DNA from: Escherichia phage vB_EcoM_10C2_SA_NWU
Sequence record: OR062525
Reading direction: 5' to 3' (one strand)
DNA: 64,000 nucleotides
Shown here: in pieces, positions 19,611 through 52,616 of the stretch
Position numbering within the stretch: the first letter of the stretch is position 1
How the letters are laid out: each line of letters starts with the position of its first letter
The notes under the pieces: generated by a model
The model's database searches: none
What the model was told of the DNA's origin: nothing
The model's input: only the letters and a program-made list of their open reading frames with translations
Translations under genes and position numbers: made by a program

Positions 19611-19850
19611 ATGTATAAGTCATTTTCAATTTACTCAAGACAGGCAAAACACTACACAGAGATTCTGATCACTCAGAAAAAATCTGTGGAAGGTGAGTGG
19701 GAATATCATCATAAAATGTTGCGTCCAGACTGGGTTTTTGATAGGCTTATTGCTATGATCCCTCTTGGAGAAGTATACCCTCTGACAGGTCATAGGGATG
19801 CTTGGGATTTAATTGATTACATAGATTCATTTAAGGAGCCCAGTGTATGA
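19611..19850 (+). CDS. hypothetical protein
   Basis: internal ATG with GAGGGG RBS. Confidence 0.35.
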   Translation: MYKSFSIYSRQAKHYTEILITQKKSVEGEWEYHHKMLRPDWVFDRLIAMIPLGEVYPLTGHRDAWDLIDYIDSFKEPSV

Positions 19851-20245
19851 AGATTGAGATCACTAAAGAAGGTAAGAAAGTGTCTGGAGACTATGCAACA
19901 GTAATTCGAGATGTAATGTTTGAAGCCACCAAGTTCGGCACATCTAAAGTTGGTCAAACTGTTAGTGTGCAAGGCAATATCGCCACAGGGGAGAAGATAA
20001 TCATTGTAATCAAAGGGCAGGATCCTGTGGAAGGAACAGTGGGCCGAGGAGGCTACCTGTGTATTTCTGAAGAACCGCGCATGCTGGTTGCTGATAACCC
20101 CACAGGTAAAAAGCGGGTATGTAACACGGACGAGGTGATGATTATCTATCCAGTCAACCCAGATGATCCGGCAACATGGATTGTGGGAAATGAAATCTTC
20201 TCTTTAGAAGAGTTATCCTTCCCAGCTCCGCGCTCTGTTCAGTAA
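19847..20245 (+). CDS. hypothetical protein (MKIEIT N-terminus)
   Basis: ATGA-coupled ORF. Confidence 0.4.
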   Translation: MKIEITKEGKKVSGDYATVIRDVMFEATKFGTSKVGQTVSVQGNIATGEKIIIVIKGQDPVEGTVGRGGYLCISEEPRMLVADNPTGKKRVCNTDEVMIIYPVNPDDPATWIVGNEIFSLEELSFPAPRSVQ

Positions 20246-20284
20246 TAATTTATCTTACCAGGGACGGTAGAAGTAGGAGGTAGC

Positions 20285-20518
20285 ATGAAAGTTAAATTTC
20301 TTACAGATTTAGGATACCCTTCCTTGGTTGACTGTGTTGGTAAAATTGTGGAAGCAAAACAGCTATCTGCAAACGATAATGTTGTCATGGTTAAGGGAAA
20401 AGATTTATTAGCTGCAGGTGCAGAGTCTGGCAGGATCTCTTCTGACTATACGTATTACCTGTCTTTAAGTAATCTACCAGAACGAGGCGGCAAAGGCCTT
20501 GAAGTTGTGGAGGAGTGA
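20285..20518 (+). CDS. small acidic protein, MKVK-x-L / DLLAAGA paralog family
   Basis: MKVKFL..VGKIVEA..VKGKDLLAAGA...LEVVEE; GGAGG RBS. Confidence 0.5.
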   Translation: MKVKFLTDLGYPSLVDCVGKIVEAKQLSANDNVVMVKGKDLLAAGAESGRISSDYTYYLSLSNLPERGGKGLEVVEE

Positions 20519-21048
20519 CAAGTATGCTTCTGATTAACTGGGAAGACCTCTATGGGGACAAAGACCCTGTTGCGTTTGTTGATCGTAGATGGAGGTACAC
20601 TGAAGAACAACTGGCTGCAAAAAATTTAACTGCAAAACGCAGAAAGATCATCCAGTGCAAATACAAATACGCACAGTTTGCTGCAAAAGTGTCTCCACAA
20701 ATCGAGAGCTTTGTGCTTAAATTGTATGACGAGTACCTCAAATTCAAATTGGATTTTGTACAGGTATACCGTGCACAGGTACGCCCAGATACCAGCATTT
20801 GTAGATGGAAGGTTGTTTGTGACGGTAAAGATTTGCCACTCAGTTTGACAATTGAGCAGCGCTGGGGGTATCATGAGTGCGGTCTGTATGAGACTTGGGA
20901 TGTCATTGTAGATCCTGCTAAGTACCTGAACACAGAGGAGCTGGAATATATCAATAAGGTTATCCTAGATATGTTTTTCAGCTACACCTGTGAAAACTCT
21001 AAGAAAGAACGGGATAATTTTCTTGACACCATCAGTAACCATCTGTAG
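20515..21048 (+). CDS. hypothetical protein
   Basis: co-directional ORF; start GTG 20515 or ATG 20524. Confidence 0.4.
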   Translation: MTSMLLINWEDLYGDKDPVAFVDRRWRYTEEQLAAKNLTAKRRKIIQCKYKYAQFAAKVSPQIESFVLKLYDEYLKFKLDFVQVYRAQVRPDTSICRWKVVCDGKDLPLSLTIEQRWGYHECGLYETWDVIVDPAKYLNTEELEYINKVILDMFFSYTCENSKKERDNFLDTISNHL

Positions 21049-21078
21049 TATACAATTTAACCTACAAAGGGAGGGCTA

Positions 21079-21315
21079 ATGAGTATAAATGTTGTGCTAA
21101 TAGGTTACCTGGTAATAGCCGTTATAACAGCGGTATTCTTGACAGGTGTATGCATCGTGTCTAGACGAAGGGTGAAGTTTGATGATTTTATCACCATCAT
21201 CACTGCTGCACCTTTTTGGCCTATTGTTATCTTCATCGTAATAATGTGCCTAGTTGATTACTACAAGAATATCCGTAAGGAGAAAAAGGAGAGTAGGGAT
21301 GGAGACCGCACCTAA
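21079..21315 (+). CDS. small membrane protein
   Basis: two hydrophobic segments; GGGAGGG RBS. Confidence 0.4.
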   Translation: MSINVVLIGYLVIAVITAVFLTGVCIVSRRRVKFDDFITIITAAPFWPIVIFIVIMCLVDYYKNIRKEKKESRDGDRT

Positions 21316-21534
21316 AACTGTTTATACTGTTCTTAAAGAGATTGCGTTCTACGCAGATCTTAGCCAGGCACCTTTATGGGAAAAGAGCATGTATTTAAAA
21401 TGGTGCGTTAATTTAGGGAGACCTTCCAGTGTTTCAAGCTATGTTTATTGAGATGCTATCTGGGGTATTGTTACTGGTAGCCATCTTAGGTGGTGCAGTT
21501 CTGATGTATAACTATCTTGAAAAAGGAGACAGCA

Positions 21535-21720
21535 ATGGCAAAAAATAAATCTTTAGAGCAGGCTGAAAACCTTCTCCACGAGCTGGTAAAGGAGTGGAAA
21601 GTTGAATACTCGGATTTTAATGCACGAGAGGGTGAAGATTATTGGCCTACGGAGCGCTCAGAGGGCGAATGGTATCAAGATTTTATAGAGTGGTTATATC
21701 AGACGTGTGATGAGGGGTGA
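21535..21720 (+). CDS. hypothetical acidic protein
   Basis: AAGGAG RBS before ATG 21535. Confidence 0.35.
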   Translation: MAKNKSLEQAENLLHELVKEWKVEYSDFNAREGEDYWPTERSEGEWYQDFIEWLYQTCDEG

Positions 21721-22178
21721 CGATGTTTGTTAAATATGTAAAAACGTGCCTCAACAGTCTTGGCAGAGAGCATTGGTACACCTTACTTGAAAAAGGAGAA
21801 ATTTTAACAAAATCTGGAAAGATAACTTTGATACCCTTGGACGATAAAGACCCGTCACTCCTTGTCATAGATGATTACGTTACAGGTGTGTCGTACGAGG
21901 TCTCTGTGGAGAGGTTAATACGCAGAGCTGGCGGCCCTTATGACCGAAGAGAGTATATTTTCGATTCTGTTACAGAGAAGGAAGATCCGTCTCTAATGTT
22001 CAGGATGGTAATCAGGGATATGAAATCATCTATAAATAGGATCGTAAAGGATATTAAGGAGCCTTTTAGGGTAAAAGTTAAGAAGTTTTTTGATTCTAAG
22101 ATTAACATACTTGCCGTTGTGCTAGGCGTAATTCAACTTCTGTTAATTTTGCACTATCTTGAACTGTTATTTAAGTAG
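21717..22178 (+). CDS. hypothetical protein with C-terminal hydrophobic helix
   Basis: ATGA-coupled ORF. Confidence 0.4.
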   Translation: MTMFVKYVKTCLNSLGREHWYTLLEKGEILTKSGKITLIPLDDKDPSLLVIDDYVTGVSYEVSVERLIRRAGGPYDRREYIFDSVTEKEDPSLMFRMVIRDMKSSINRIVKDIKEPFRVKVKKFFDSKINILAVVLGVIQLLLILHYLELLFK

Positions 22179-22238
22179 TGTGCAATAAGGCACAAAGGAT
22201 GTGCCATAACTAAATAAACTAAGAAAGAGGTAGAGAGA

Positions 22239-22586
22239 ATGCCAAAGATTAAATCGATATTAATGTGGGTAGCTGTTGTAGCTTTTGTAGGATACTGGAC
22301 TTGGGAAACTGAATTAAAAGATATCGGATATACCAGTCTTGAGAACAAGGCGTGCATTGGCATAACCGATGCATTCAGGCAAAATGCTATGGATCACGAA
22401 TGTGTTGATGCAGATATAGATGAGAAACTGTCTAAGGACAAAGACTTCTACCACGGGTATGCTTTGCTTGATAGTGGTGACACTGTAGAGTTCTGGTCGT
22501 GGTTCCGTAAAGATGGAACAATAAAAACAGCAGTAAAGATCTCTAACAAAGAGTTAATGCTGTTGCAGCAGAAGGAGGCTCAATGA
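22239..22586 (+). CDS. membrane-anchored hypothetical protein
   Basis: N-terminal hydrophobic segment ILMWVAVVAFVGYW; GAAAGAGG RBS. Confidence 0.4.
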   Translation: MPKIKSILMWVAVVAFVGYWTWETELKDIGYTSLENKACIGITDAFRQNAMDHECVDADIDEKLSKDKDFYHGYALLDSGDTVEFWSWFRKDGTIKTAVKISNKELMLLQQKEAQ

Positions 22587-22870
22587 TCTGGATATCCTAT
22601 GCTGATGGCACCATGCTGTATACTGCAGGTACCAGGTATGAGGTTCAGGAGGACGATAAAAAATTTATCGTAAAAACATTTGACAAGGACGACAACCTTT
22701 TGCTAGAATTGACTTACAAAGTGGGAGAGGTATCCAATATCCAATTGGATTGTGGTCATAAAGATAATCCACTCAAAAAACCTGGAATAGGCAAGGCTTC
22801 AGAAGAACGTTTGTCTCGTATTGCAGAAAGCGTTTCTCCCCAAAAATCTAAGAAGAGGATTAGAAAATGA
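22583..22870 (+). CDS. hypothetical protein
   Basis: ATGA-coupled ORF. Confidence 0.4.
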   Translation: MIWISYADGTMLYTAGTRYEVQEDDKKFIVKTFDKDDNLLLELTYKVGEVSNIQLDCGHKDNPLKKPGIGKASEERLSRIAESVSPQKSKKRIRK

Positions 22871-23067
22871 GTGACAAAATTCTTAAATTTAATACCTACT
22901 ATGAGAATGATTTGAACGATCTGTATTATATAGTGCGTAGCGAAAACCCAAATGTAGTACTGTTTTGCCGAGAACCTTTCAAAAAAGAGGAGATTGAATC
23001 TACCATGGATGTGGATCAGATTTCACACCTACTGCTCCTTGGATCATTAAAAGAGGCGGTATTCTAA
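22867..23067 (+). CDS. hypothetical protein
   Basis: ATGA-coupled ORF. Confidence 0.35.
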   Translation: MSDKILKFNTYYENDLNDLYYIVRSENPNVVLFCREPFKKEEIESTMDVDQISHLLLLGSLKEAVF

Positions 23068-23086
23068 ACCAAGGTAGAGGGTTTTT

Positions 23087-23272
23087 ATGAAGCACTATTG
23101 TCTGTCTGGTAGAATGGGTGCAGATTGTGATTGGGTTTTCTTAAAACTTGTCAGCATTCGAGAGTTCATCCCAGAGGAAGAGCAAGAAAGTGAGCTGATG
23201 TCATGGATCAACCATTACGGTAACACTTTTCGGCATGTTAAGGTGGAAGAGTTGCCAAGCGAGGCTGATTGA
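23087..23272 (+). CDS. hypothetical protein
   Basis: ORF with GAGGG RBS. Confidence 0.35.
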   Translation: MKHYCLSGRMGADCDWVFLKLVSIREFIPEEEQESELMSWINHYGNTFRHVKVEELPSEAD

Positions 23273-23367
23273 CTATGATTGCATCAATATTAACGTTTAT
23301 GGGCGGCGTGGCATTCGGATTCATTGTTTGCCTGTTTATAGTGATTATGTCTATGCGAGGCTGAATT

Positions 23368-23664
23368 ATGAAACTTTTTGAGTGGTTTAAAAAGTTTAAA
23401 TATAAAGCTGTAGCTATCGTGCCATGGTCCATTCAATGGGTGGACGATGAGGGATTACCAATTCCGGGTGATAAAGACACGGGATACTGGATCATGCTTG
23501 AAAACGGGTTTGGAAAGCGAAAATATACGTGCACAAACTCTACTCGATCTGCACTTAATAGAGTGCCTGGTTACAAACTTATGGTTGTGTGGAAAATGTC
23601 AGGCGTGCCTCCGGCTAATGCTCAATTTCTTACTGACAATCCAACCACGGTGGAGGGAGATTGA
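23368..23664 (+). CDS. hypothetical protein
   Basis: co-directional ORF. Confidence 0.4.
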   Translation: MKLFEWFKKFKYKAVAIVPWSIQWVDDEGLPIPGDKDTGYWIMLENGFGKRKYTCTNSTRSALNRVPGYKLMVVWKMSGVPPANAQFLTDNPTTVEGD

Positions 23665-23666
23665 TA

Positions 23667-23948
23667 ATGAAAAAGATTAACAGTGGTGAAGTTGAGTTTA
23701 AACTTGTCGGGAAAGGCACTTACTGGGAAGTTCGTCAAAAGGTATATTTGTTCGGTCTTATTCCCTATTGGTCTAAATTCTACTGGGGAGCTAACGAGTT
23801 GGGAAGATACGCCACCAAATCAATGGCACTTATTGGTATAGCAGAGTACATTGCAGCCAGAGATAGGGTTGGAGACACTTATTACTATACTGCGGACGAT
23901 ATTCGTAACAGTGTTTACGTCCCACAACCACCTGATGGAGACCGTTGA
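23667..23948 (+). CDS. hypothetical protein
   Basis: ATG with GGAGGGAG RBS. Confidence 0.4.
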   Translation: MKKINSGEVEFKLVGKGTYWEVRQKVYLFGLIPYWSKFYWGANELGRYATKSMALIGIAEYIAARDRVGDTYYYTADDIRNSVYVPQPPDGDR

Positions 23949-24172
23949 TGAAAGTTAAAGTTTTAGATTCAAGCTTCTATATTGGTCAGGAGCCTTTAGT
24001 AGGGAAAGTGTTTACTGCTGTCCCTAACGAAGATTATCCTGACCTTTTAAAAATAAAAGGTGCAGATCTTATTGCCGCTGGTGCATCTCAGGACTGCTTT
24101 GACAGTCAGTGGACCTACAACTTTGCCCTAGGTGAGGATGTAGAGATAGTGGAGGACGATCATGAAGGTTAA
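23948..24172 (+). CDS. small acidic protein, MKVK-x-L / DLIAAGA paralog family
   Basis: MKVKVLDSSFYIGQ..GKV..AV..GADLIAAGA..VEIVEDD; closest paralog of next gene. Confidence 0.5.
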   Translation: MKVKVLDSSFYIGQEPLVGKVFTAVPNEDYPDLLKIKGADLIAAGASQDCFDSQWTYNFALGEDVEIVEDDHEG

Positions 24173-24416
24173 AATTCTTGATTCTAACGTCTACTTGGGA
24201 CAATCCTTCCTGAAGGGAAAGGTCGTTCCTGCGGTATACTTTGAAGGGTTGCCGTGGGATGATCCTGTGCGGCAACATCACAGCTATGTAGGCCACAACG
24301 TGGTGTTTATTTTGGGATCAGACCTGATCGCTGCTGGTGCACCGGAATATTATTTCGGGGAAGAGTCATATTATGCCTTTGGGGCAGGGTCAGATGCAGA
24401 TATTGTAGAGCTGTGA
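24162..24416 (+). CDS. small acidic protein, MKVK-x-L / DLIAAGA paralog family
   Basis: MKVKILDSNVYLGQ..GKV..AV..GSDLIAAGA..ADIVEL. Confidence 0.5.
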   Translation: MKVKILDSNVYLGQSFLKGKVVPAVYFEGLPWDDPVRQHHSYVGHNVVFILGSDLIAAGAPEYYFGEESYYAFGAGSDADIVEL

Positions 24417-24428
24417 TAGGTAACCGTT

Positions 24429-24827
24429 GTGAAAAATAAACTATTCAAAGTTACAATGAAAATTCGCGGAGCTTGGAGCGTAAAGCAAGGGCGTATCCCA
24501 GAATTTGAGAAAGACTTCTACGTAGTCTCCACCTCGGAGGAGGCTGCATGCTGGCAGGCTGGCTATGCCTATGCAAGAACCTGGTACGAAGGATACCAGA
24601 CCGGGGGATATGACGGAGAAATTATCAGCAGAGGTGTGGAAGAAATTAATGTGTTGACAAGTGAAAAAGTTTTTGTTATAGTGCATCCAGATTCCAGAGT
24701 GAAGCATTACTGGAACGCCAGAACAAAAACTTGGACACCGTTTGCAGATTCTGCTACGCCACTTTTAAACCAGAAAGCTCTTGACTCTGCCCCAAGTTAT
24801 GGGATTGTTGAAGAAAAGCTAAACTGA
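24429..24827 (+). CDS. hypothetical protein, paralog of 26637..27032
   Basis: shared HPDSRVKHYWNARTKTWTP vs HPHSNIAYYWDVLNNEWTP. Confidence 0.45.
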   Translation: MKNKLFKVTMKIRGAWSVKQGRIPEFEKDFYVVSTSEEAACWQAGYAYARTWYEGYQTGGYDGEIISRGVEEINVLTSEKVFVIVHPDSRVKHYWNARTKTWTPFADSATPLLNQKALDSAPSYGIVEEKLN

Positions 24828-24844
24828 AACAGTGAGGTACTAAC

Positions 24845-25135
24845 ATGATGGATTTAGTTCTGGACACGGATAACACCGGAGAGTTTAAAAAGGATGGTGT
24901 AACAAGCGTTGACCAATCCTTCCCTGCCAAGATTGACTCAAAATGGACCTACAAGTTCGATGGAGAGATCTTCGCAAATGATGAGAAGGTTGTAGATGCT
25001 GCAGCCATTTTGAACGCTCTAGGGTACGACCCTGTGAATTCTTTGATCAAGGATCCTGTTGAGTTTGCAGAGTATGTTCGAAAAATGGCAGATCTTGCTG
25101 TGGATATTTTAAAAACTATCGACGACAAGCTGTAA
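24845..25135 (+). CDS. hypothetical acidic protein
   Basis: GAGG RBS. Confidence 0.4.
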   Translation: MMDLVLDTDNTGEFKKDGVTSVDQSFPAKIDSKWTYKFDGEIFANDEKVVDAAAILNALGYDPVNSLIKDPVEFAEYVRKMADLAVDILKTIDDKL

Positions 25136-25141
25136 AAACTG

Positions 25142-25170
25142 TTGACACAACGCTTCAGATTTAGTATCAT
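25142..25170 (+). promoter_or_regulatory. sigma70-like promoter upstream of hpf homolog
   Basis: TTGACA-N17-TATCAT, then leader hairpin AGAGGG-TTTGGTT-CCCTCT. Confidence 0.45.
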
Positions 25171-25217
25171 TGTTTTCAAAGAGGGTTTGGTTCCCTCTTC
25201 TTTAAAAGGAACACGTT

Positions 25218-25535
25218 ATGCAAATTGAAATCACTGGCAACGTAGAAATCACTGAAGGTATGGTGTCTTTCATTTCCCACAAAATGTCTAAGCTGGAGCG
25301 TTTGCACCCATCTGCCAACTATGCACGTGTGAGTGTAAAAGTTGAAAATGATCACCAGGAAGTTATGGCGTTCATTTTTGACAATTCTGGAAAAGAAGTT
25401 ATTGCCAAGGCTAAAGGCAGTGATGCTTACGAGGCAACTGACCGTATGGTAGATGTTGCAGCACGTCAGCTGGCTAAATGCGGTGGAAAGAAAGGTAAGG
25501 GGAAAGGCAAAGTAAAGATTGACTTTGGAGAATGA
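25218..25535 (+). CDS. hpf: ribosome hibernation promoting factor / RaiA-like protein
   Basis: MQIEITGNVEITEGMVSFISHKMSKLERL...VSVKVEN...DAYEATDRMVDVAARQLAK aligns by eye with my recollection of E. coli Hpf (MQLNITGNNVEITEALREFV...YAAIDGLIDKLARQL); Lys/Gly-rich tail. Confidence 0.65.
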   Translation: MQIEITGNVEITEGMVSFISHKMSKLERLHPSANYARVSVKVENDHQEVMAFIFDNSGKEVIAKAKGSDAYEATDRMVDVAARQLAKCGGKKGKGKGKVKIDFGE

Positions 25536-25672
25536 GGTGCTACAATGGGTGTGATTAAGAAATTAGTCCCAAATGTAGAGATTGCATGCTTTGAAATTAT
25601 GTTTGCAATCGCAGTTGTAGTTAATGTGTTAGGTTACGGCTATTAATATCAAATAATTGAGGAGACCTCTAA

Positions 25673-25942
25673 ATGAAAATTAAATTATTCAAAACCGAGC
25701 TGGCAGACAAAAACTGTGGACTGGTTGAAGGCATGATCGTTGAAGCACAACCAGTAGACTACATGAAGGTAGTTCGTGATGCCTTGGGTGAAGGTTTTGA
25801 TCTGATGGAACCAGCTCTGCGAGAAGATGTTATCGAGATGGCTAAAAAGCACACACCTGAAGGCATGGTGGTGTTTGTTGCACCGGGTAACGGAGAAGAG
25901 TTGATTGTAACCCCTGATGTGTATGAGATTGTAGAAGAGTAA
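25673..25942 (+). CDS. small acidic protein, probable member of MKVK paralog family
   Basis: MKIKLF...LVEGMIVEA...YEIVEE. Confidence 0.4.
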   Translation: MKIKLFKTELADKNCGLVEGMIVEAQPVDYMKVVRDALGEGFDLMEPALREDVIEMAKKHTPEGMVVFVAPGNGEELIVTPDVYEIVEE

Positions 25943-26036
25943 TCCTGCTTGGATTAGCATACTTCCTCAATAAAAAGAAAAGTTTGTAATTATTTGTGGG
26001 AAAGGAATCCCAATCTCTTACCAGAGGTGATACTAT

Positions 26037-26300
26037 ATGATTGTTTATTTTAAAACTTCAGGTGGATACCCTGATTCTCAAAGCTTGATCGGAAAAACGT
26101 GCACAGCATACTCACCTCTTGATGAAGAGGTAGGTGATATTCTACGAAATATGTATCGGATTGACCCCCAAGAAGCTTTTGATCAAAACCTTGTATTTGT
26201 CAAAGGCTCAGACATGAAGTCTTTGGGAGCATTCCCTGAAGCAGATGATGATGCCGTTTATTCGTTCATGACCCCTTTTGAAGCTATGGTTGTTGGGTGA
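26037..26300 (+). CDS. small acidic protein, MKVK paralog family (N-terminally divergent)
   Basis: GYPDSQSLIGK..VFVKGSDMKSLGA shared with 20285 paralog. Confidence 0.45.
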   Translation: MIVYFKTSGGYPDSQSLIGKTCTAYSPLDEEVGDILRNMYRIDPQEAFDQNLVFVKGSDMKSLGAFPEADDDAVYSFMTPFEAMVVG

Positions 26301-26304
26301 TAGT

Positions 26305-26637
26305 ATGAAAGTACGCTTTATTGGTGAAACAATTCCTGTGCATCTCCGGTCGCCTGAAGATTCTGCAGATCTTGCATCTCAGAAGGCGAGAGGTTATGAT
26401 AAGAAAGTAATCTCAACCGATGTAGAACTTGAGGCTACTAGTCTACCTGACCCTGCTGCATTCTTTAATCATTATGGATACTATTTCAGCAATCTGATGA
26501 ATATCGGTGAACTTGTGTTTATTAGTGGTGGAGAAATTGTTAGCAAGCTTGGCGGCGATCCGGATGTCTTTCATGAAACCTGTCCTTTTGCATTTGTGGT
26601 GGGTTCAGATGTGGAAGTTATTGAGGAGGTGCGGTAA
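26305..26637 (+). CDS. small acidic protein, probable member of MKVK paralog family
   Basis: MKVRFIG...FVVGSDVEVIEE. Confidence 0.4.
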   Translation: MKVRFIGETIPVHLRSPEDSADLASQKARGYDKKVISTDVELEATSLPDPAAFFNHYGYYFSNLMNIGELVFISGGEIVSKLGGDPDVFHETCPFAFVVGSDVEVIEEVR

Positions 26638-27032
26638 TGGTAAGCCTATACCGTGTTGAGTATAGCTCAGATACTGTGTACAACGTAAGAAGCAAAGATC
26701 GCAGCGACAGAGTGCAAGAAATGTATGTTCTTGCCGACAGTCCGTTATCTGCAGCGTTCAAGGCAGGGGCTCTTGCATCTCGTTGGAAATTTGAAGGCGG
26801 ATCTTTCTATGAAGAAACCCTTGAAGATTCTGTTGTTATTTCTTCTGTAGAGGTTTCAGATGACTACGAAGGGAAAAAGTTCGTAATGCGGCACCCACAC
26901 AGCAACATTGCGTACTACTGGGATGTTCTGAACAACGAGTGGACCCCAGATCTTCAGAAGGCTACTGTGCTAACACCGTTTTTGGCAGATAAGTTCCCAC
27001 CAGAAGGTAATTTATCCGCACTGTTTCAGTAA
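26637..27032 (+). CDS. hypothetical protein, paralog of 24429..24827
   Basis: shared motifs with 24429 ORF. Confidence 0.45.
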   Translation: MVSLYRVEYSSDTVYNVRSKDRSDRVQEMYVLADSPLSAAFKAGALASRWKFEGGSFYEETLEDSVVISSVEVSDDYEGKKFVMRHPHSNIAYYWDVLNNEWTPDLQKATVLTPFLADKFPPEGNLSALFQ

Positions 27033-27111
27033 TTTTCTTGCACACAGGTGTTGACAACGCCAACCCTGTGTGAAATAATACCTTCATCTTAACAAGACAG
27101 GAGACCGATTG

Positions 27112-27369
27112 ATGAAGATTAAATTGAAAAACCTTGAAACGGCAGAGATTCAGGACGGTGTTGATTTCCGTTCTAAAGATGGTGACATCTTAGAGGTAAA
27201 TATTCCAACCTACGAGCTGATCAAAGGTTTTGGCAACGTCCCAGAGGAAGGTATCGCAGACGTTCTTCTAATGTTAATCGTTAGTGGGACAGTGTTCTTG
27301 GGTGAAGGTGAGAACGCTATTGCAATCCCAAGCCATTTTTATGAAGTAGTTGACGAAGAGGTGCTGTAA
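27112..27369 (+). CDS. small acidic protein (MKIKL N-terminus)
   Basis: GGAGA RBS; ends YEVVDEEVL. Confidence 0.4.
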   Translation: MKIKLKNLETAEIQDGVDFRSKDGDILEVNIPTYELIKGFGNVPEEGIADVLLMLIVSGTVFLGEGENAIAIPSHFYEVVDEEVL

Positions 27370-27720
27370 ATGAAAGTAGAAATTACTGGTTTTGATGTTA
27401 GTGTGGTTCCGGAAGATATTTTAGCTAAACTTCCAGAAGGTTTTGGTAACGGCGTTGTTGTGGATGCTGTTCCTCCTACCAAAGACATTCTGCTGCAGTA
27501 CGGTGTAGCAGAGGAAGATGTCGATAAAGTTCTTACAATGATGGCAATCGATCGTGTTGTCGTTGTTAAAGGTCTCGATAATTTTGAGAGTGATCCCCTG
27601 ATTATTCGTGGAGATGACTACAAAATCATCGATAATGAAGGCCAAGAGTTCTATGAGCCTTGTGCAGAAGATATTCTTAACTTATTACTGGAAGCAGGCA
27701 CCGAAGAGGAGGACGAATAA
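27370..27720 (+). CDS. small acidic protein (MKVEITG N-terminus)
   Basis: ATG overlapping upstream stop. Confidence 0.4.
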   Translation: MKVEITGFDVSVVPEDILAKLPEGFGNGVVVDAVPPTKDILLQYGVAEEDVDKVLTMMAIDRVVVVKGLDNFESDPLIIRGDDYKIIDNEGQEFYEPCAEDILNLLLEAGTEEEDE

Positions 27721-28049
27721 TGAAGATTGACCCGTTACTGAAGGCTCGTGCAGAAAAAGCGTACACCATTAAGTTGACCAACTTGGTTCCTACTTGTCAT
27801 CCGGATGTAGGTTGGCCCGAAGGTTTGGTGGAGGGAACTGTAACAGCTGCATACCTTCCTAACATCAAATACCTCATGGAAATCTTGGAGCTGGATGAGG
27901 AAACGGCAGAAGAGTTTCAGTTGGACATGAAACAAAGTGGGACTCTGGTTATTCACGGGTGGTACAATACTAAAGATGCAGAAGATCCTCTGGTAACTTC
28001 TAATCTGGCATATGAAATCTTAGGACCTTTGAACCTGGAGGAAGACTAA
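27720..28049 (+). CDS. small acidic protein
   Basis: ATGA coupling. Confidence 0.4.
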   Translation: MKIDPLLKARAEKAYTIKLTNLVPTCHPDVGWPEGLVEGTVTAAYLPNIKYLMEILELDEETAEEFQLDMKQSGTLVIHGWYNTKDAEDPLVTSNLAYEILGPLNLEED

Positions 28050-28336
28050 TGAAAGATCTGGTTAAGATTAAGATTAAAGATACCAATGGAGAACTCAGCC
28101 ATTTTGGAATTAATGATGGTGACGAGCTGATCGCACACCTGCCTACCAAGGAGGTTGTAAGCAAAGCAGTTGCCGGAGAAGAAGCTGCAATGCAGGCTGC
28201 AGGTGTGGATGAAAACTATGTAGCTATGTGCATGTGCCGAGATCAGGTTGTTCTGTATAAAGCGTATCGACCAAACGGAGCCACGGAGTGGCTTGTATTC
28301 CGACCCGAAGGATATGAAATCTTAGAGGCACTATGA
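28049..28336 (+). CDS. small acidic protein
   Basis: ATGA coupling; ends YEILEAL. Confidence 0.4.
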   Translation: MKDLVKIKIKDTNGELSHFGINDGDELIAHLPTKEVVSKAVAGEEAAMQAAGVDENYVAMCMCRDQVVLYKAYRPNGATEWLVFRPEGYEILEAL

Positions 28337-28425
28337 TAAATCTTGCCAAGGTTGCAACGGCACTGTTAATTATTTGCTGGTCAGTAACCTTAACACTGTG
28401 TCTTGTATTTCAGTGAGGTGCTTGT

Positions 28426-30117: not shown

Positions 30118-30142
30118 CAAAATATCAAATTTAAGACACCTA

Positions 30143-30170
30143 GGACGCTCTGTGGCGTCCTTTTCTTTAT
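30143..30170 (+). terminator. rho-independent terminator
   Basis: GGACGC-TCTGTG-GCGTCC hairpin followed by TTTTCTTTAT. Confidence 0.6.
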
Positions 30171-51677: not shown

Positions 51678-52041
51678 TCATCAGATCTGCCATAGCGTCA
51701 CCCACGAAGAGAACAACCACATCGTTGACCGCGTCAGCATCATCTTTGTTGACGTTGCTGAATTTAGGACACACAGCAATAATCATATAGACACCGTTAC
51801 CAACCTGAACTGTCCGTGTGGTGCACATCATGGCTGTATTTGTACCTTCTTTGAAAGCGAATCCTTGAAGACGCTCCTCCAAAGTGTTACCGGTAGATTT
51901 CAGAAGCGCCAGCTCGTCCAAGGCATAGATGATATCTCCGGAAGTTAGTGTTGCCTTGCCATCAGACACCATAATCACTCCATCAGCACCGTCAAGCTTA
52001 GAGGCTTCAAAGATATCGATATCCCAAATATTTTTCATCAC
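51649..52041 (-). CDS. hypothetical protein
   Basis: co-directional ORF. Confidence 0.4.
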   Translation of the reverse strand: MMKNIWDIDIFEASKLDGADGVIMVSDGKATLTSGDIIYALDELALLKSTGNTLEERLQGFAFKEGTNTAMMCTTRTVQVGNGVYMIIAVCPKFSNVNKDDADAVNDVVVLFVGDAMADLMNAGEAANED

Positions 52042-52358
52042 GCTTCCTCGTCGTCTAAGGAGTTGAAGATTTCACCGAAATATTCTAAGACTTCTAGCTC
52101 TCGTGTGGTGCAGAAAACACAGTCACCGTTGTCATCCTCGATAACGGCCTCTTTACCCAGCACATCTACTTCAAGTTTATCGTTCAACAGGACAGCCCCT
52201 GTGTAAACTTTGTCGGCTGTGCAGTCCCGAAAAGCAGAGTCTTTCTCCAGATAGTCTGGCTTAACCTTGGCTTTAATTCGTTGATATTGTTTGGTCATTG
52301 CTGTGGTCCCCTTTCGTTTTGATAGGGCCATTATATTAGGCCCCATCACTGTTGTCAA
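52038..52358 (-). CDS. hypothetical protein, paralog of 52362..52616
   Basis: shared KPDYLEKDSAFRDCT / KPECVANDRAFKDCT and DDNGDCVFCT / DDEGDSVWCT. Confidence 0.45.
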   Translation of the reverse strand: MTTVMGPNIMALSKRKGTTAMTKQYQRIKAKVKPDYLEKDSAFRDCTADKVYTGAVLLNDKLEVDVLGKEAVIEDDNGDCVFCTTRELEVLEYFGEIFNSLDDEEA

Positions 52359-52361
52359 GTA

Positions 52362-52616
52362 TTAATGTTCAGGTTTTACAAAAACTACTTCATTAACAGT
52401 GCACCAGACAGAGTCTCCTTCATCATCTTTAAAGGTAAGGCACTGTGCTGAGTTTTCCAGCTCATCAATCTCTTCTTGTGATAAAGGGGCCCCTTCTTCC
52501 AGAAGGGCTTTTACCAAAGGGTTCTCACAAAACTCTGCTTCATAAGTAGCGCCAAGTGTGCAATCTTTAAAAGCTCGGTCGTTTGCAACGCATTCTGGTT
52601 TCAACATGATTTTCAT
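52362..52616 (-). CDS. hypothetical protein, paralog of 52038..52358
   Basis: see paralog motifs. Confidence 0.45.
   Translation of the reverse strand: MKIMLKPECVANDRAFKDCTLGATYEAEFCENPLVKALLEEGAPLSQEEIDELENSAQCLTFKDDEGDSVWCTVNEVVFVKPEH

What the first reader, a model, noticed from the sequence alone, without database searches (positions are those of the whole stretch)
19847..28336. Expanded family of small acidic paralogs (MKVK-x-L ... DLIAAGA ... E-I/V-V-E-E)
At least five ORFs (20285, 23948, 24162, 26037, 26305) share clear sequence blocks (MKVK[VIF]L, GK[VI]V.AV, [GS][AK]DL[IL]AAGA, acidic [EV][IV][VI]E[ED] tail), and several more (19847, 25673, 27112, 27370, 28049) look like diverged members. 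A second pair (24429 and 26637) shares HP[DH]S...YW...[TE]WTP. Paralog blooms of this kind in phage early regions often mark loci under diversifying selection, but the function is unknown.
Basis: seen in the sequence. Interest (0 to 1): 0.5.

Follow-up and report, generated by a model that had tools for sequence, protein, structure and literature searches.

The report
Three small-protein paralog families in rV5-like phage
An rV5-like E. coli phage carries twelve small genes of unknown function that fall into three repeated families, two of them predicted to be tiny acidic SH3-like barrels; they are real, conserved, non-essential accessory genes rather than a rapidly diversifying locus.

Summary
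The window is a Vequintavirus (100% identical to phage vB_EcoM_12A_SA_NWU; 96% to rV5).

The five "clear" ORFs (20285, 23948, 24162, 26037, 26305) are one family, here called A. It corresponds to phrog_5009 and relatives and has no Pfam entry.

Four of the five "diverged" ORFs (25673, 27112, 27370, 28049), plus the unlisted 27720, form a separate family B. Leave-one-out HMMs support it. It shows no sequence link to A. ORF 19847 belongs to neither.

The pair 24429/26637 is real (family C).

AlphaFold models of one A member (pLDDT 93) and one B member (pLDDT 88) are both five-stranded SH3-like barrels. Paralog-specific insertions of 0-50 residues sit between strands 2 and 3.

The shared acidic "tail" is the last barrel strand, and in six tightly packed genes its codons also form the next gene's Shine-Dalgarno.

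Across eight genomes dN/dS is 0.02-0.16. The array is present in 114 of 121 Vequintavirus records. This is purifying selection, not gene-wide diversifying selection.

One viable phage (Bas59) lacks 23948, 24162 and 24429.

Best guess, inferred only: early-expressed acidic protein-binding modules that modulate host or phage proteins. Interest is modest.

The parts
20285..20518 (+). Family A member 1 (77 aa, pI 5.1). Its closest relatives outside the genus are 75-aa proteins of E. coli lambdoid prophages.
   Evidence: phrog_5009 E=7e-36. z=17.5 to 23948. phmmer E=2e-16 to 8e-14 to L012, L002-L004 and L013, which lie between the Q antiterminator and the holin. dN/dS 0.12.
23948..24172 (+). Family A member 2 (74 aa, pI 4.05). 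This is the A member that was modelled.
24162..24416 (+). Family A member 3 (84 aa). It has a 10-residue insertion in the strand 2-3 loop and overlaps 23948 by 11 nt.
   Evidence: 50% identical to 23948, z=22.7. phrog_5009 E=5e-32. Natural chimeras P0014 and P0017 join the 23948 N-terminus to the 24162 C-terminus. dN/dS 0.16.
26037..26300 (+). Family A member 4 (87 aa, pI 4.1), diverged, with an insertion of about 22 residues in the strand 2-3 loop.
   Evidence: phrog_13920, plus phrog_5009 at E=1.2e-4. Leave-out HMM E=6e-4. hhalign 78-93% to 20285, 23948 and 24162; only 6% to 26305. dN/dS 0.08.
26305..26637 (+). Family A member 5 (110 aa), diverged, with an insertion of about 50 residues in the strand 2-3 loop. 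Its stop overlaps the start of 26637.
   Evidence: z=8-9 to 23948 and 24162. Leave-out HMM E=8e-4. hhalign 96% to 24162. Alignment. dN/dS 0.06.
25673..25942 (+). Family B member 1 (89 aa, pI 4.4).
   Evidence: A leave-out HMM recovers it at E=5e-4, first noise at E=3.1. dN/dS 0.02. P0077 is a natural in-frame deletion within the insert.
27112..27369 (+). Family B member 2 (85 aa, pI 4.2). This is the B member that was modelled.
27370..27720 (+). Family B member 3 (116 aa, net charge -21, acidic C-terminal extension).
   Evidence: Leave-out HMM E=7e-10. z=6.0 to 28049 and 4.9 to 27112. pI 4.05.
27720..28049 (+). Family B member 4 (109 aa).
   Evidence: Leave-out HMM E=2e-3, first noise at E=2.8. 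z=4.2 to 27370. Aligns with the family pattern.
28049..28336 (+). Family B member 5 (95 aa).
   Evidence: Leave-out HMM E=1e-5. Split into two CDSs in the rV5 record. P0045 is a natural in-frame deletion within the insert.
24429..24827 (+). Family C member 1 (132 aa from GTG; some records annotate an ATG start at 24456). It starts 12 nt after A member 24162.
   Evidence: phrog_7379 E=3e-73. z=16.9 to 26637. Found only in Vequintavirus. dN/dS 0.07.
26637..27032 (+). Family C member 2 (131 aa). Its start overlaps the stop of A member 26305.
   Evidence: phrog_7379 E=2e-66. 27% identical to 24429 over the full length, including HPxS..YW..WTP. dN/dS 0.02.
25142..25170 (+). Sigma-70-like promoter (11 of 12 consensus positions) upstream of the HPF/RaiA gene and of 25673-27032.
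   Evidence: It corresponds to the annotated rV5 promoter P144.
27051..27079 (+). Sigma-70-like promoter (11 of 12, extended -10) upstream of the four tandem B genes 27112-28336.
   Evidence: It corresponds to the annotated rV5 promoter P150.

Best explanation
The locus holds three paralog families of small cytoplasmic proteins in a genus-specific accessory gene block of a Vequintavirus.

Families A and B (five genes each) are predicted to be acidic, single-domain SH3-like beta-barrels. Members differ mainly by what is inserted between strands 2 and 3: nothing, a short loop, or a helical hairpin.

Family C (two genes of about 131 aa) follows an A member directly in both cases. This fits an old duplication of a block [A][A][C]: 23948-24162-24429 and 26037-26305-26637.

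Shown:
- the paralogy of each family;
- the predicted fold;
- purifying selection;
- conservation across the genus;
- dispensability of one block in a viable isolate;
- translational coupling.

Inferred mechanism. The genes are transcribed by host RNA polymerase from sigma-70 promoters before late genes. Each barrel acts as a small protein-binding module that binds and modulates a different host (or phage) protein, for host take-over or counter-defence. The conserved GxDLIAAGA helix of family A and the variable strand 2-3 insert would supply the interaction surface.

My confidence is about 0.85 for the structural and evolutionary description. It is about 0.4 for 'protein-binding modulators of host or phage proteins', and within that about 0.2 for counter-defence specifically.
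For: Paralogy.

Insert position: alignments read against the DSSP strings.

Real, constrained genes: dN/dS 0.02-0.16.

Acidic: pI 4.05-5.05, net charge -2 to -21. This argues against nucleic-acid binding.

Accessory status:
- Families A, B and C are absent from the syntenic regions of Seunavirus and Mydovirus, although the flanking genes are conserved.
- Bas59 (EduardKellenberger) is a viable isolate that lacks window 20921-24741.

Family A as a mobile phage module:
- 90 clusters at 50% identity in 1.84 billion representatives. 66 of the 82 newly found representatives are small (<=95 aa), with median pI 4.5.
- Copies in lambdoid prophages between the Q antiterminator and the holin, the classic moron position.
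- Tandem-repeat proteins and fusions, including a fusion to DUF3310.
- DUF3310 is the SaV-like early phage protein that is toxic to L. lactis and E. coli and was proposed to shut down host functions (PMC8306868).
- Metagenomic copies sit among early and replication genes.

Promoters.
Against: No experiment or characterised homolog exists. There are no Pfam, PDB-sequence or annotated BFVD matches, and all PHROGs involved are 'unknown function'.

Expression timing is inferred from promoter consensus only.

Within-genus conservation is high, so there is no arms-race signature of the kind often seen for counter-defence genes.

Variability is not significantly concentrated in the insert loops: odds ratio 1.2, p=0.18.

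Both structures are predictions. The B model used an alignment of the five paralog groups.
Confidence: 0.45

Rival explanations
1. One superfamily. Families A and B descend from a single ancestral small barrel gene. They have diverged beyond sequence recognition, giving a ten-member repertoire built on one scaffold.
Against: There is no significant sequence signal: z median 0.16, p=0.14, hhalign 4%. A's hallmark GxDLIAAGA...YxF is absent from B. SH3-like barrels are among the commonest small folds, so convergence is plausible. The shared C-terminal Glu-rich motif is partly explained by embedded Shine-Dalgarno sequences. The two models could not be superposed directly with the tools available.
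Confidence: 0.4
2. Two-component modules. An A member works together with the family C protein encoded directly downstream (24162 with 24429, 26305 with 26637), for example as partner, chaperone or neutraliser. The duplicated unit would then be a functional pair.
For: The A-then-C adjacency occurs twice, with a 12-nt gap and an ATGA-type overlap. The Shine-Dalgarno of 26637 lies inside the last codons of 26305. Divergence is similar for the C pair (27% identity) and for A members across the two blocks (27-29% identity). The natural Bas59 deletion removes A and C together.
Against: Family C exists only in Vequintavirus, whereas family A occurs widely without it. Adjacency could simply be inherited from one segmental duplication. 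No interaction prediction could be run.
Confidence: 0.15
3. Nucleic-acid or ribosome-binding barrels of the KOW/Sm/OapB/L24 type. They would act on translation alongside the neighbouring phage HPF/RaiA gene.
Confidence: 0.08
4. DNA-mimic anti-restriction or anti-nuclease proteins (working like Ocr, ArdA or Gp5.9), especially the very acidic B members.
For: They are small, strongly acidic and probably early expressed. 27370 has net charge -21.
Against: Vequintavirinae are reported as exceptionally susceptible to restriction-modification systems and seemingly without effective protection (PMC8594841). The predicted compact barrel is unlike the known elongated helical mimics. There is no sequence similarity to any of them.
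Confidence: 0.06
5. Minor virion or assembly proteins.
For: A neighbouring gene product (rV5 gp133, window 21723-22178) was a predominant protein in virion mass spectrometry (PMC3606486). SH3-like barrels occur in phage structural proteins.
Against: None of the twelve gene products is named in the rV5 proteomics text, and the gp-number searches for a subset of them (gp127, 140, 141, 147, 148, 151) found nothing in the text or the supplements held. The genes lie in the replication and accessory transcription unit, far from the morphogenesis genes. One block is dispensable.
Confidence: 0.05

Closest known systems
PHROG families phrog_5009 (with 13367, 7345, 8603, 20482, 15322, 9595), phrog_13920 and phrog_13661; phrog_11868, 12359, 12155, 12457 and 12794; phrog_7379
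   Same: These are the database clusters that already contain these proteins. 20285, 23948 and 24162 match phrog_5009 at E<=5e-32. 64 of 65 small metagenomic relatives also match it.
   Different: All are labelled 'unknown function'. PHROGs splits family A into three clusters and family B into five. The links shown here (26037 and 26305 to A; the five B members to each other) are not recorded there.
SH3-like small beta-barrels (SH3 domains, PsaE, KOW domains of Spt5/NusG/L24, OapB)
Small acidic early proteins of lytic phages that bind and inhibit host proteins (for example T7 Gp2, T7 Gp5.9, T4 AsiA, anti-CRISPR and other anti-defence proteins). The examples are recalled from general knowledge, not tested here.
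   Same: Size of 70-120 aa, acidity, placement in accessory gene blocks behind host-type promoters, dispensability in the laboratory, patchy distribution and horizontal transfer between unrelated phages.
   Different: There is no sequence or specific structural similarity to any characterised example. No target is known. Orthologs are under ordinary purifying selection.
SaV-like / DUF3310 early phage proteins (PF11753)
   Same: They are linked by association. One metagenomic family A relative (P0145) is fused to a DUF3310 domain (E=3e-20). Another relative has a DUF3310 gene about 0.8 kb downstream. SaV is an early, host-toxic protein (PMC8306868).
   Different: No protein in this window contains DUF3310. 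The link is a single fusion plus one neighbourhood.

Membership tests
phrog_5009 (PHROGs v4, unknown function) | Significant match to the family profile HMM over its full length (74 positions) | tested here: met
   20285 E=7e-36, 23948 E=1e-38, 24162 E=5e-32, all full length. 26037 matches only weakly (E=1.2e-4, profile positions 1-58). 26305 has no hit at E<=0.1 and is linked to the family only by my own HMMs.
SH3-like barrel fold (structural class) | Five antiparallel strands forming a small, partly open barrel | tested here: met
Canonical SH3 domain (Pfam SH3_1, SH3_2, SH3_9 and bacterial SH3_3-type) | Match to a Pfam SH3 model, including the conserved aromatic peptide-binding residues | tested here: not met
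   No Pfam family at E<=1 for any A or B member, and none among 65 relatives.
KOW domain (NusG/Spt5/L24) | KOW sequence motif (Pfam PF00467) and a basic nucleic-acid or ribosome-binding surface | tested here: not met
   No Pfam match. pI 4.05-5.05.
DNA-mimic anti-restriction proteins (Ocr/ArdA type) | Confers protection of the phage against restriction-modification systems | not testable with these tools
   Indirect evidence is against it. Vequintavirinae are described as exceptionally susceptible to RM systems (PMC8594841).
DNA-mimic anti-restriction proteins (Ocr/ArdA type) | Sequence or fold similarity to Ocr or ArdA | tested here: not met
   No Pfam or PDB-sequence hits. The predicted fold is a compact beta-barrel.
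SaV-like / DUF3310 (PF11753) | Match to PF11753 | tested here: not met
   No window protein matches. Only the metagenomic fusion protein P0145 does.
   dN/dS is 0.02-0.16 for all twelve genes. The array covers >=80% of the query in 114 of 121 records. Exceptions are rare: the Bas59 deletion, V18 truncations and a few chimeras. Site models were not run.

The most novel reading that the evidence does not exclude
Families A and B together form a phage-encoded repertoire of ten binders built on one minimal SH3-like scaffold. Specificity would be diversified by cassette-like insertions in a single loop, with each member neutralising a different host factor or defence protein. Family A would be a widespread, still unnamed, mobile 'binder' domain of phages. 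That would explain its tandem repeats, its fusions (for example to SaV-like DUF3310) and its copies in prophage moron sites.
Probability: 0.12. Interest if true: 0.65.

Novelty: new member of a known kind. Interest (0 to 1): 0.33.

Why it matters
rV5-like phages are among the E. coli phages most often isolated and are used in biocontrol and therapy cocktails. Most of their accessory genes are blank.

This analysis turns twelve 'hypothetical proteins' into three defined families. Two of them have a confident predicted fold. It also identifies a natural deletion strain (Bas59) and clear candidates for interaction screens.

Family A is a Pfam-less domain found in about 90 clusters (at 50% identity) of phage proteins. 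Defining it would improve annotation well beyond this genus.

If the barrels prove to be a loop-diversified binder set against host factors, they would be a compact model for how phages expand a scaffold. Nothing found here shows that yet.

Tried and rejected
1. One ten-member family was rejected at sequence level. A against B gives no signal, and an A-family HMM finds no B member in the window.
2. 19847 as a member was rejected.
3. The acidic tail as a family signature was down-weighted. It is a window-wide property of tightly packed genes and coincides with embedded Shine-Dalgarno sequences.
4. Gene-wide diversifying selection was rejected.
5. Excess variability in the insert loops among orthologs was not significant overall: OR 1.2, p=0.18. 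It is higher only in some A members.
6. Pfam, PDB sequences and BFVD gave no functional lead.
7. The search for related loci with the A alignment failed because no conserved 7-10-column stretch exists.
8. tblastn with a family consensus against isolated phages found only one record. Single-member tblastn found the family outside Vequintavirus only in mEp013, MagusPhagus and two Vibrio phages.
9. Literature searches found no description of these paralogs, no Vequintavirus transcriptome and no functional data. One search was mis-specified and useless.
10. Other Vequintavirinae genera (Seunavirus, Mydovirus) were examined for orthologs. None of A, B or C is present, although the flanks are syntenic.
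11. Family B and C homolog searches over 5.8 billion proteins returned only Vequintavirus sequences.


Full report
**Source and setting**

Window 19800-28400 is 100% identical to Escherichia phage vB_EcoM_12A_SA_NWU (OR062528) and 96% identical to phage rV5. 121 Vequintavirus records match, 114 of them over at least 80% of the stretch.

All genes here lie on the + strand. They belong to the transcription unit that rV5's authors define as genes 82-163. It runs through nucleotide metabolism, PhoH, a ClpP-like protease and a methyltransferase into a long run of small ORFs. In every record inspected the twelve genes of interest are 'hypothetical protein'.

**Checking the observation**

I translated 30 + strand genes from 19.5-29.8 kb. 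I scored all 435 pairs by Smith-Waterman against 300 composition-preserving shuffles.

| Pair | z |
|---|---|
| 23948~24162 | 22.7 |
| 20285~23948 | 17.5 |
| 24429~26637 | 16.9 |
| 23948~26305 | 8.9 |
| 24162~26305 | 7.9 |
| 20285~24162 | 7.5 |
| 20285~26037 | 6.2 (borderline) |

Further support for family A:
- PHROGs puts 20285, 23948 and 24162 in phrog_5009. 26037 touches it at E=1.2e-4.
- An HMM built without 26037, 26305 and their orthologs finds both, at E=6e-4 and 8e-4 among 1903 ORFs. Noise starts at E=2.7.
- hhalign between ortholog alignments gives 78-99.8% for eight of the ten A pairs. The other two (20285~26305 and 26037~26305) reach only 6-7% and are connected through 23948/24162.

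So the five 'clear' ORFs are one family (A).

**The 'diverged' ORFs**

25673, 27112, 27370, 27720 and 28049 show only weak pairwise similarity, but it is consistent.
- All ten within-group z-scores are positive (1.4-6.0, median 3.2). The background median is -0.1. Mann-Whitney p=3e-7.
- Leave-one-subfamily-out HMMs are decisive. Each left-out member is the best non-training hit among 474 window ORFs (E=5e-4, 1.4e-5, 7e-10, 2e-3, 1e-5), with the first unrelated ORF at E>=0.67.

This is a second family (B). It has no sequence link to A: p=0.14 and hhalign 4% over 28 N-terminal columns.

ORF 19847 matches neither family. The pair 24429/26637 (family C) is 27% identical over the full length, and both members are in phrog_7379.

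**The acidic tail**

In family A the E-[IV]-V-E motif is the last barrel strand, and it is conserved in distant relatives.

The C-terminal Glu-rich codons of 20285, 23948, 26305, 27112, 27370 and 27720 also spell GAGG/GGAGG exactly where the next gene needs a Shine-Dalgarno (20285 from inspection of the sequence). Window-wide, genes that end within 8 nt of the next start have twice as many Glu in their last six residues (1.23 against 0.60, p=4e-4). The tail is therefore poor evidence of common descent.

**Fold**

| Model | pLDDT | Strands | Helices |
|---|---|---|---|
| 23948 (A), 37-sequence alignment, | 93 | 2-5, 21-23, 33-37, 56-61, 65-69 | 38-43, carrying the conserved DLIAAGA |
| 27112 (B), 44-sequence alignment, | 88 | 2-5, 26-28, 61-63, 70-72, 77-79 | 34-40 and 45-58, between strands 2 and 3 |

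Inside family A, the paralog-specific insertions fall in the same strand 2-3 loop:
- about 10 residues in 24162;
- about 22 in 26037;
- about 50 in 26305.

Natural in-frame deletions in B orthologs (P0077, P0045) fall within the B insert region as I delimited it.

The shared fold and shared insertion site make a common origin of A and B possible. I put it at about 0.4. They do not prove it.

**Distribution**

*Family A.*
- A word-indexed search found 41 clusters at 90% identity.
- A full HMMER scan of 1.84 billion representatives found 90 clusters at E<=1e-3.
- Among the 82 newly found representatives, 66 are small stand-alone proteins of up to 95 aa, mostly 63-80 aa, with median pI 4.5.
- Some are two- or three-fold tandem repeats.
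- Some are fusions, including one to DUF3310 and several to a Cys-rich tail.
- No Pfam model covers the domain.
- 64 of 65 relatives match phrog_5009.
- 20285-like copies sit in E. coli lambdoid prophages and in phages mEp013 and MagusPhagus, inside the array of small genes between the Q antiterminator and the holin. They occur in 13 of 5426 complete E. coli genomes.
- Metagenomic copies lie among phage early and replication genes. Two lie directly upstream of an HTH_3 gene.

*Families B and C.* Both occur only in Vequintavirus.

*Sister genera.* The syntenic regions of Seunavirus and Mydovirus keep the flanking genes but lack all three families.

**Selection and copy number**

Pooled Nei-Gojobori dN/dS over eight genomes is 0.02-0.16 for the twelve genes. 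That lies within the range of their neighbours. All reading frames are intact except 28049 in the rV5 record. These are constrained, functional genes, and gene-wide diversifying selection is not supported.

Copy-number change is rare but real:
- Chimeras fuse the 23948 N-terminus to the 24162 C-terminus (P0014, P0017).
- V18 has truncated 26037 and 26305. Sequencing error is possible.
- BASEL phage EduardKellenberger (Bas59) lacks window 20921-24741. That removes 23948, 24162 and most of 24429. This block is therefore dispensable on E. coli K-12.

**Organisation**

The gene order is:
1. 23948 (A), 24162 (A), 24429 (C), a 96-aa acidic ORF;
2. promoter, HPF/RaiA, a 33-aa hydrophobic ORF, 25673 (B), 26037 (A), 26305 (A), 26637 (C);
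3. promoter, then 27112, 27370, 27720 and 28049 (all B).

Gaps within runs are -11 to +12 nt. The repeated order A-A-C, together with similar divergence of the C pair (27% identity) and the cross-block A members (27-29%), suggests an old segmental duplication. This is inference.

The near-consensus sigma-70 promoters at 25142-25170 and 27051-27079 match rV5's annotated P144 and P150.

**Mechanism**

No homolog has been studied. I commit to the following reading.

These are small acidic protein-binding barrels, expressed from host-type promoters. Each modulates a host or phage protein during take-over. The variable insert, and in family A the conserved helix, form the interface.

Support is circumstantial:
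- the acidity argues against nucleic-acid binding;
- the genes are accessory and dispensable;
- family A moves between unrelated phages and occupies moron sites;
- one relative is fused to, and another neighbours, a SaV-like DUF3310 domain. SaV is an early host-toxic protein (PMC8306868).

A DNA-mimic anti-restriction role is unlikely. Vequintavirinae are described as exceptionally sensitive to restriction systems (PMC8594841). A structural role is unlikely given the genes' location and their absence from the reported virion proteome.

**Novelty and verdict**

The sequences are already clustered in PHROGs without function. What is added here:
- the correct family structure, including the new links of 26037 and 26305 to A and of the five B members to each other;
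- the predicted fold and the insertion site;
- the Shine-Dalgarno explanation for the tails;
- the selection regime;
- the natural deletion;
- the breadth of family A.

This is an ordinary kind of feature, a paralog expansion of small accessory phage genes, with uncharacterised members. Interest is modest.

Noticed in passing
window 25218-25535 (+): A phage-encoded ribosome hibernation factor (HPF/RaiA) homolog lies in the middle of the paralog block (Pfam PF02482, E=2e-12). It has its own near-consensus sigma-70 promoter. In the source record OR062528 it is annotated 'ATP-dependent protease La Type I', which looks like a mis-annotation.
   Followed up: partly
window 52038-52358 (-) and 52362-52616 (-): This is another tandem pair of small paralogous genes (106 and 84 aa) on the opposite strand, with Smith-Waterman z=12.9. 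They are unrelated in sequence to families A, B and C. The shorter one has an MKIMLK start and a central acidic stretch that is reminiscent of family B.
   Followed up: partly
L026 (Escherichia phage EduardKellenberger, Bas59), junction at locus ~6100; corresponds to window 20921-24741: A natural 3.8-kb deletion in a viable BASEL phage removes about 14 small genes, including two A members and one C member. It offers a ready-made comparison strain.
   Followed up: partly
window 20285-28336, 3' ends of tightly packed genes: Glu-rich C-termini coincide with the Shine-Dalgarno of the next gene. Across the window, genes with <=8 nt to the next start have 38% with >=2 Glu in the last six residues, against 10% for the others.
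   Followed up: yes
P0092 (metagenomic, 98 aa) versus window 27720-28049: This is a chimeric protein. An unrelated 47-residue N-terminus (MKNYKVIKEF...) is joined at 'DEETAEEF' to the C-terminal half of B member 27720. A precomputed Pfam hit (PF24132) is attached to it.
   Followed up: no
L006 3990-4775 and L011 402-982: In two unrelated metagenomic phage contigs, a family A protein with an acidic C-terminal extension (107-108 aa) sits immediately upstream of an HTH_3 (Cro/CI-type) gene, with overlapping stop and start. L006 also has a second A member directly upstream.
   Followed up: partly
phage records MG0656xx ('Campylobacter phage ...', 18 records): Eighteen records labelled Campylobacter phage are 93-96% identical to this E. 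coli Vequintavirus locus. Several are flagged UNVERIFIED, so host labels in that set look unreliable.
   Followed up: no
window 21723-22178 (+): This is the ortholog of rV5 gp133, a predominant protein in virion mass spectrometry (PMC3606486). It is annotated 'HNH homing endonuclease' in OR062528 and 'virion structural protein' in rV5 and FV3. The annotations are inconsistent.
   Followed up: no
window 30142-30161 (+) and about 30.1 kb: A strong terminator-like hairpin (8 pairs plus a T-run) coincides with the point where GC skew changes sign and coding switches to the - strand. This marks the end of the rightward transcription unit that holds the paralog block.
   Followed up: no
window 25545-25646 (+): A 33-aa hydrophobic ORF (MGVIKKLVPNVEIACFEIMFAIAVVVNVLGYGY) follows HPF directly. 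It has its own GAGG Shine-Dalgarno and is annotated in rV5, FV3 and others. It may be a small membrane peptide.
   Followed up: no
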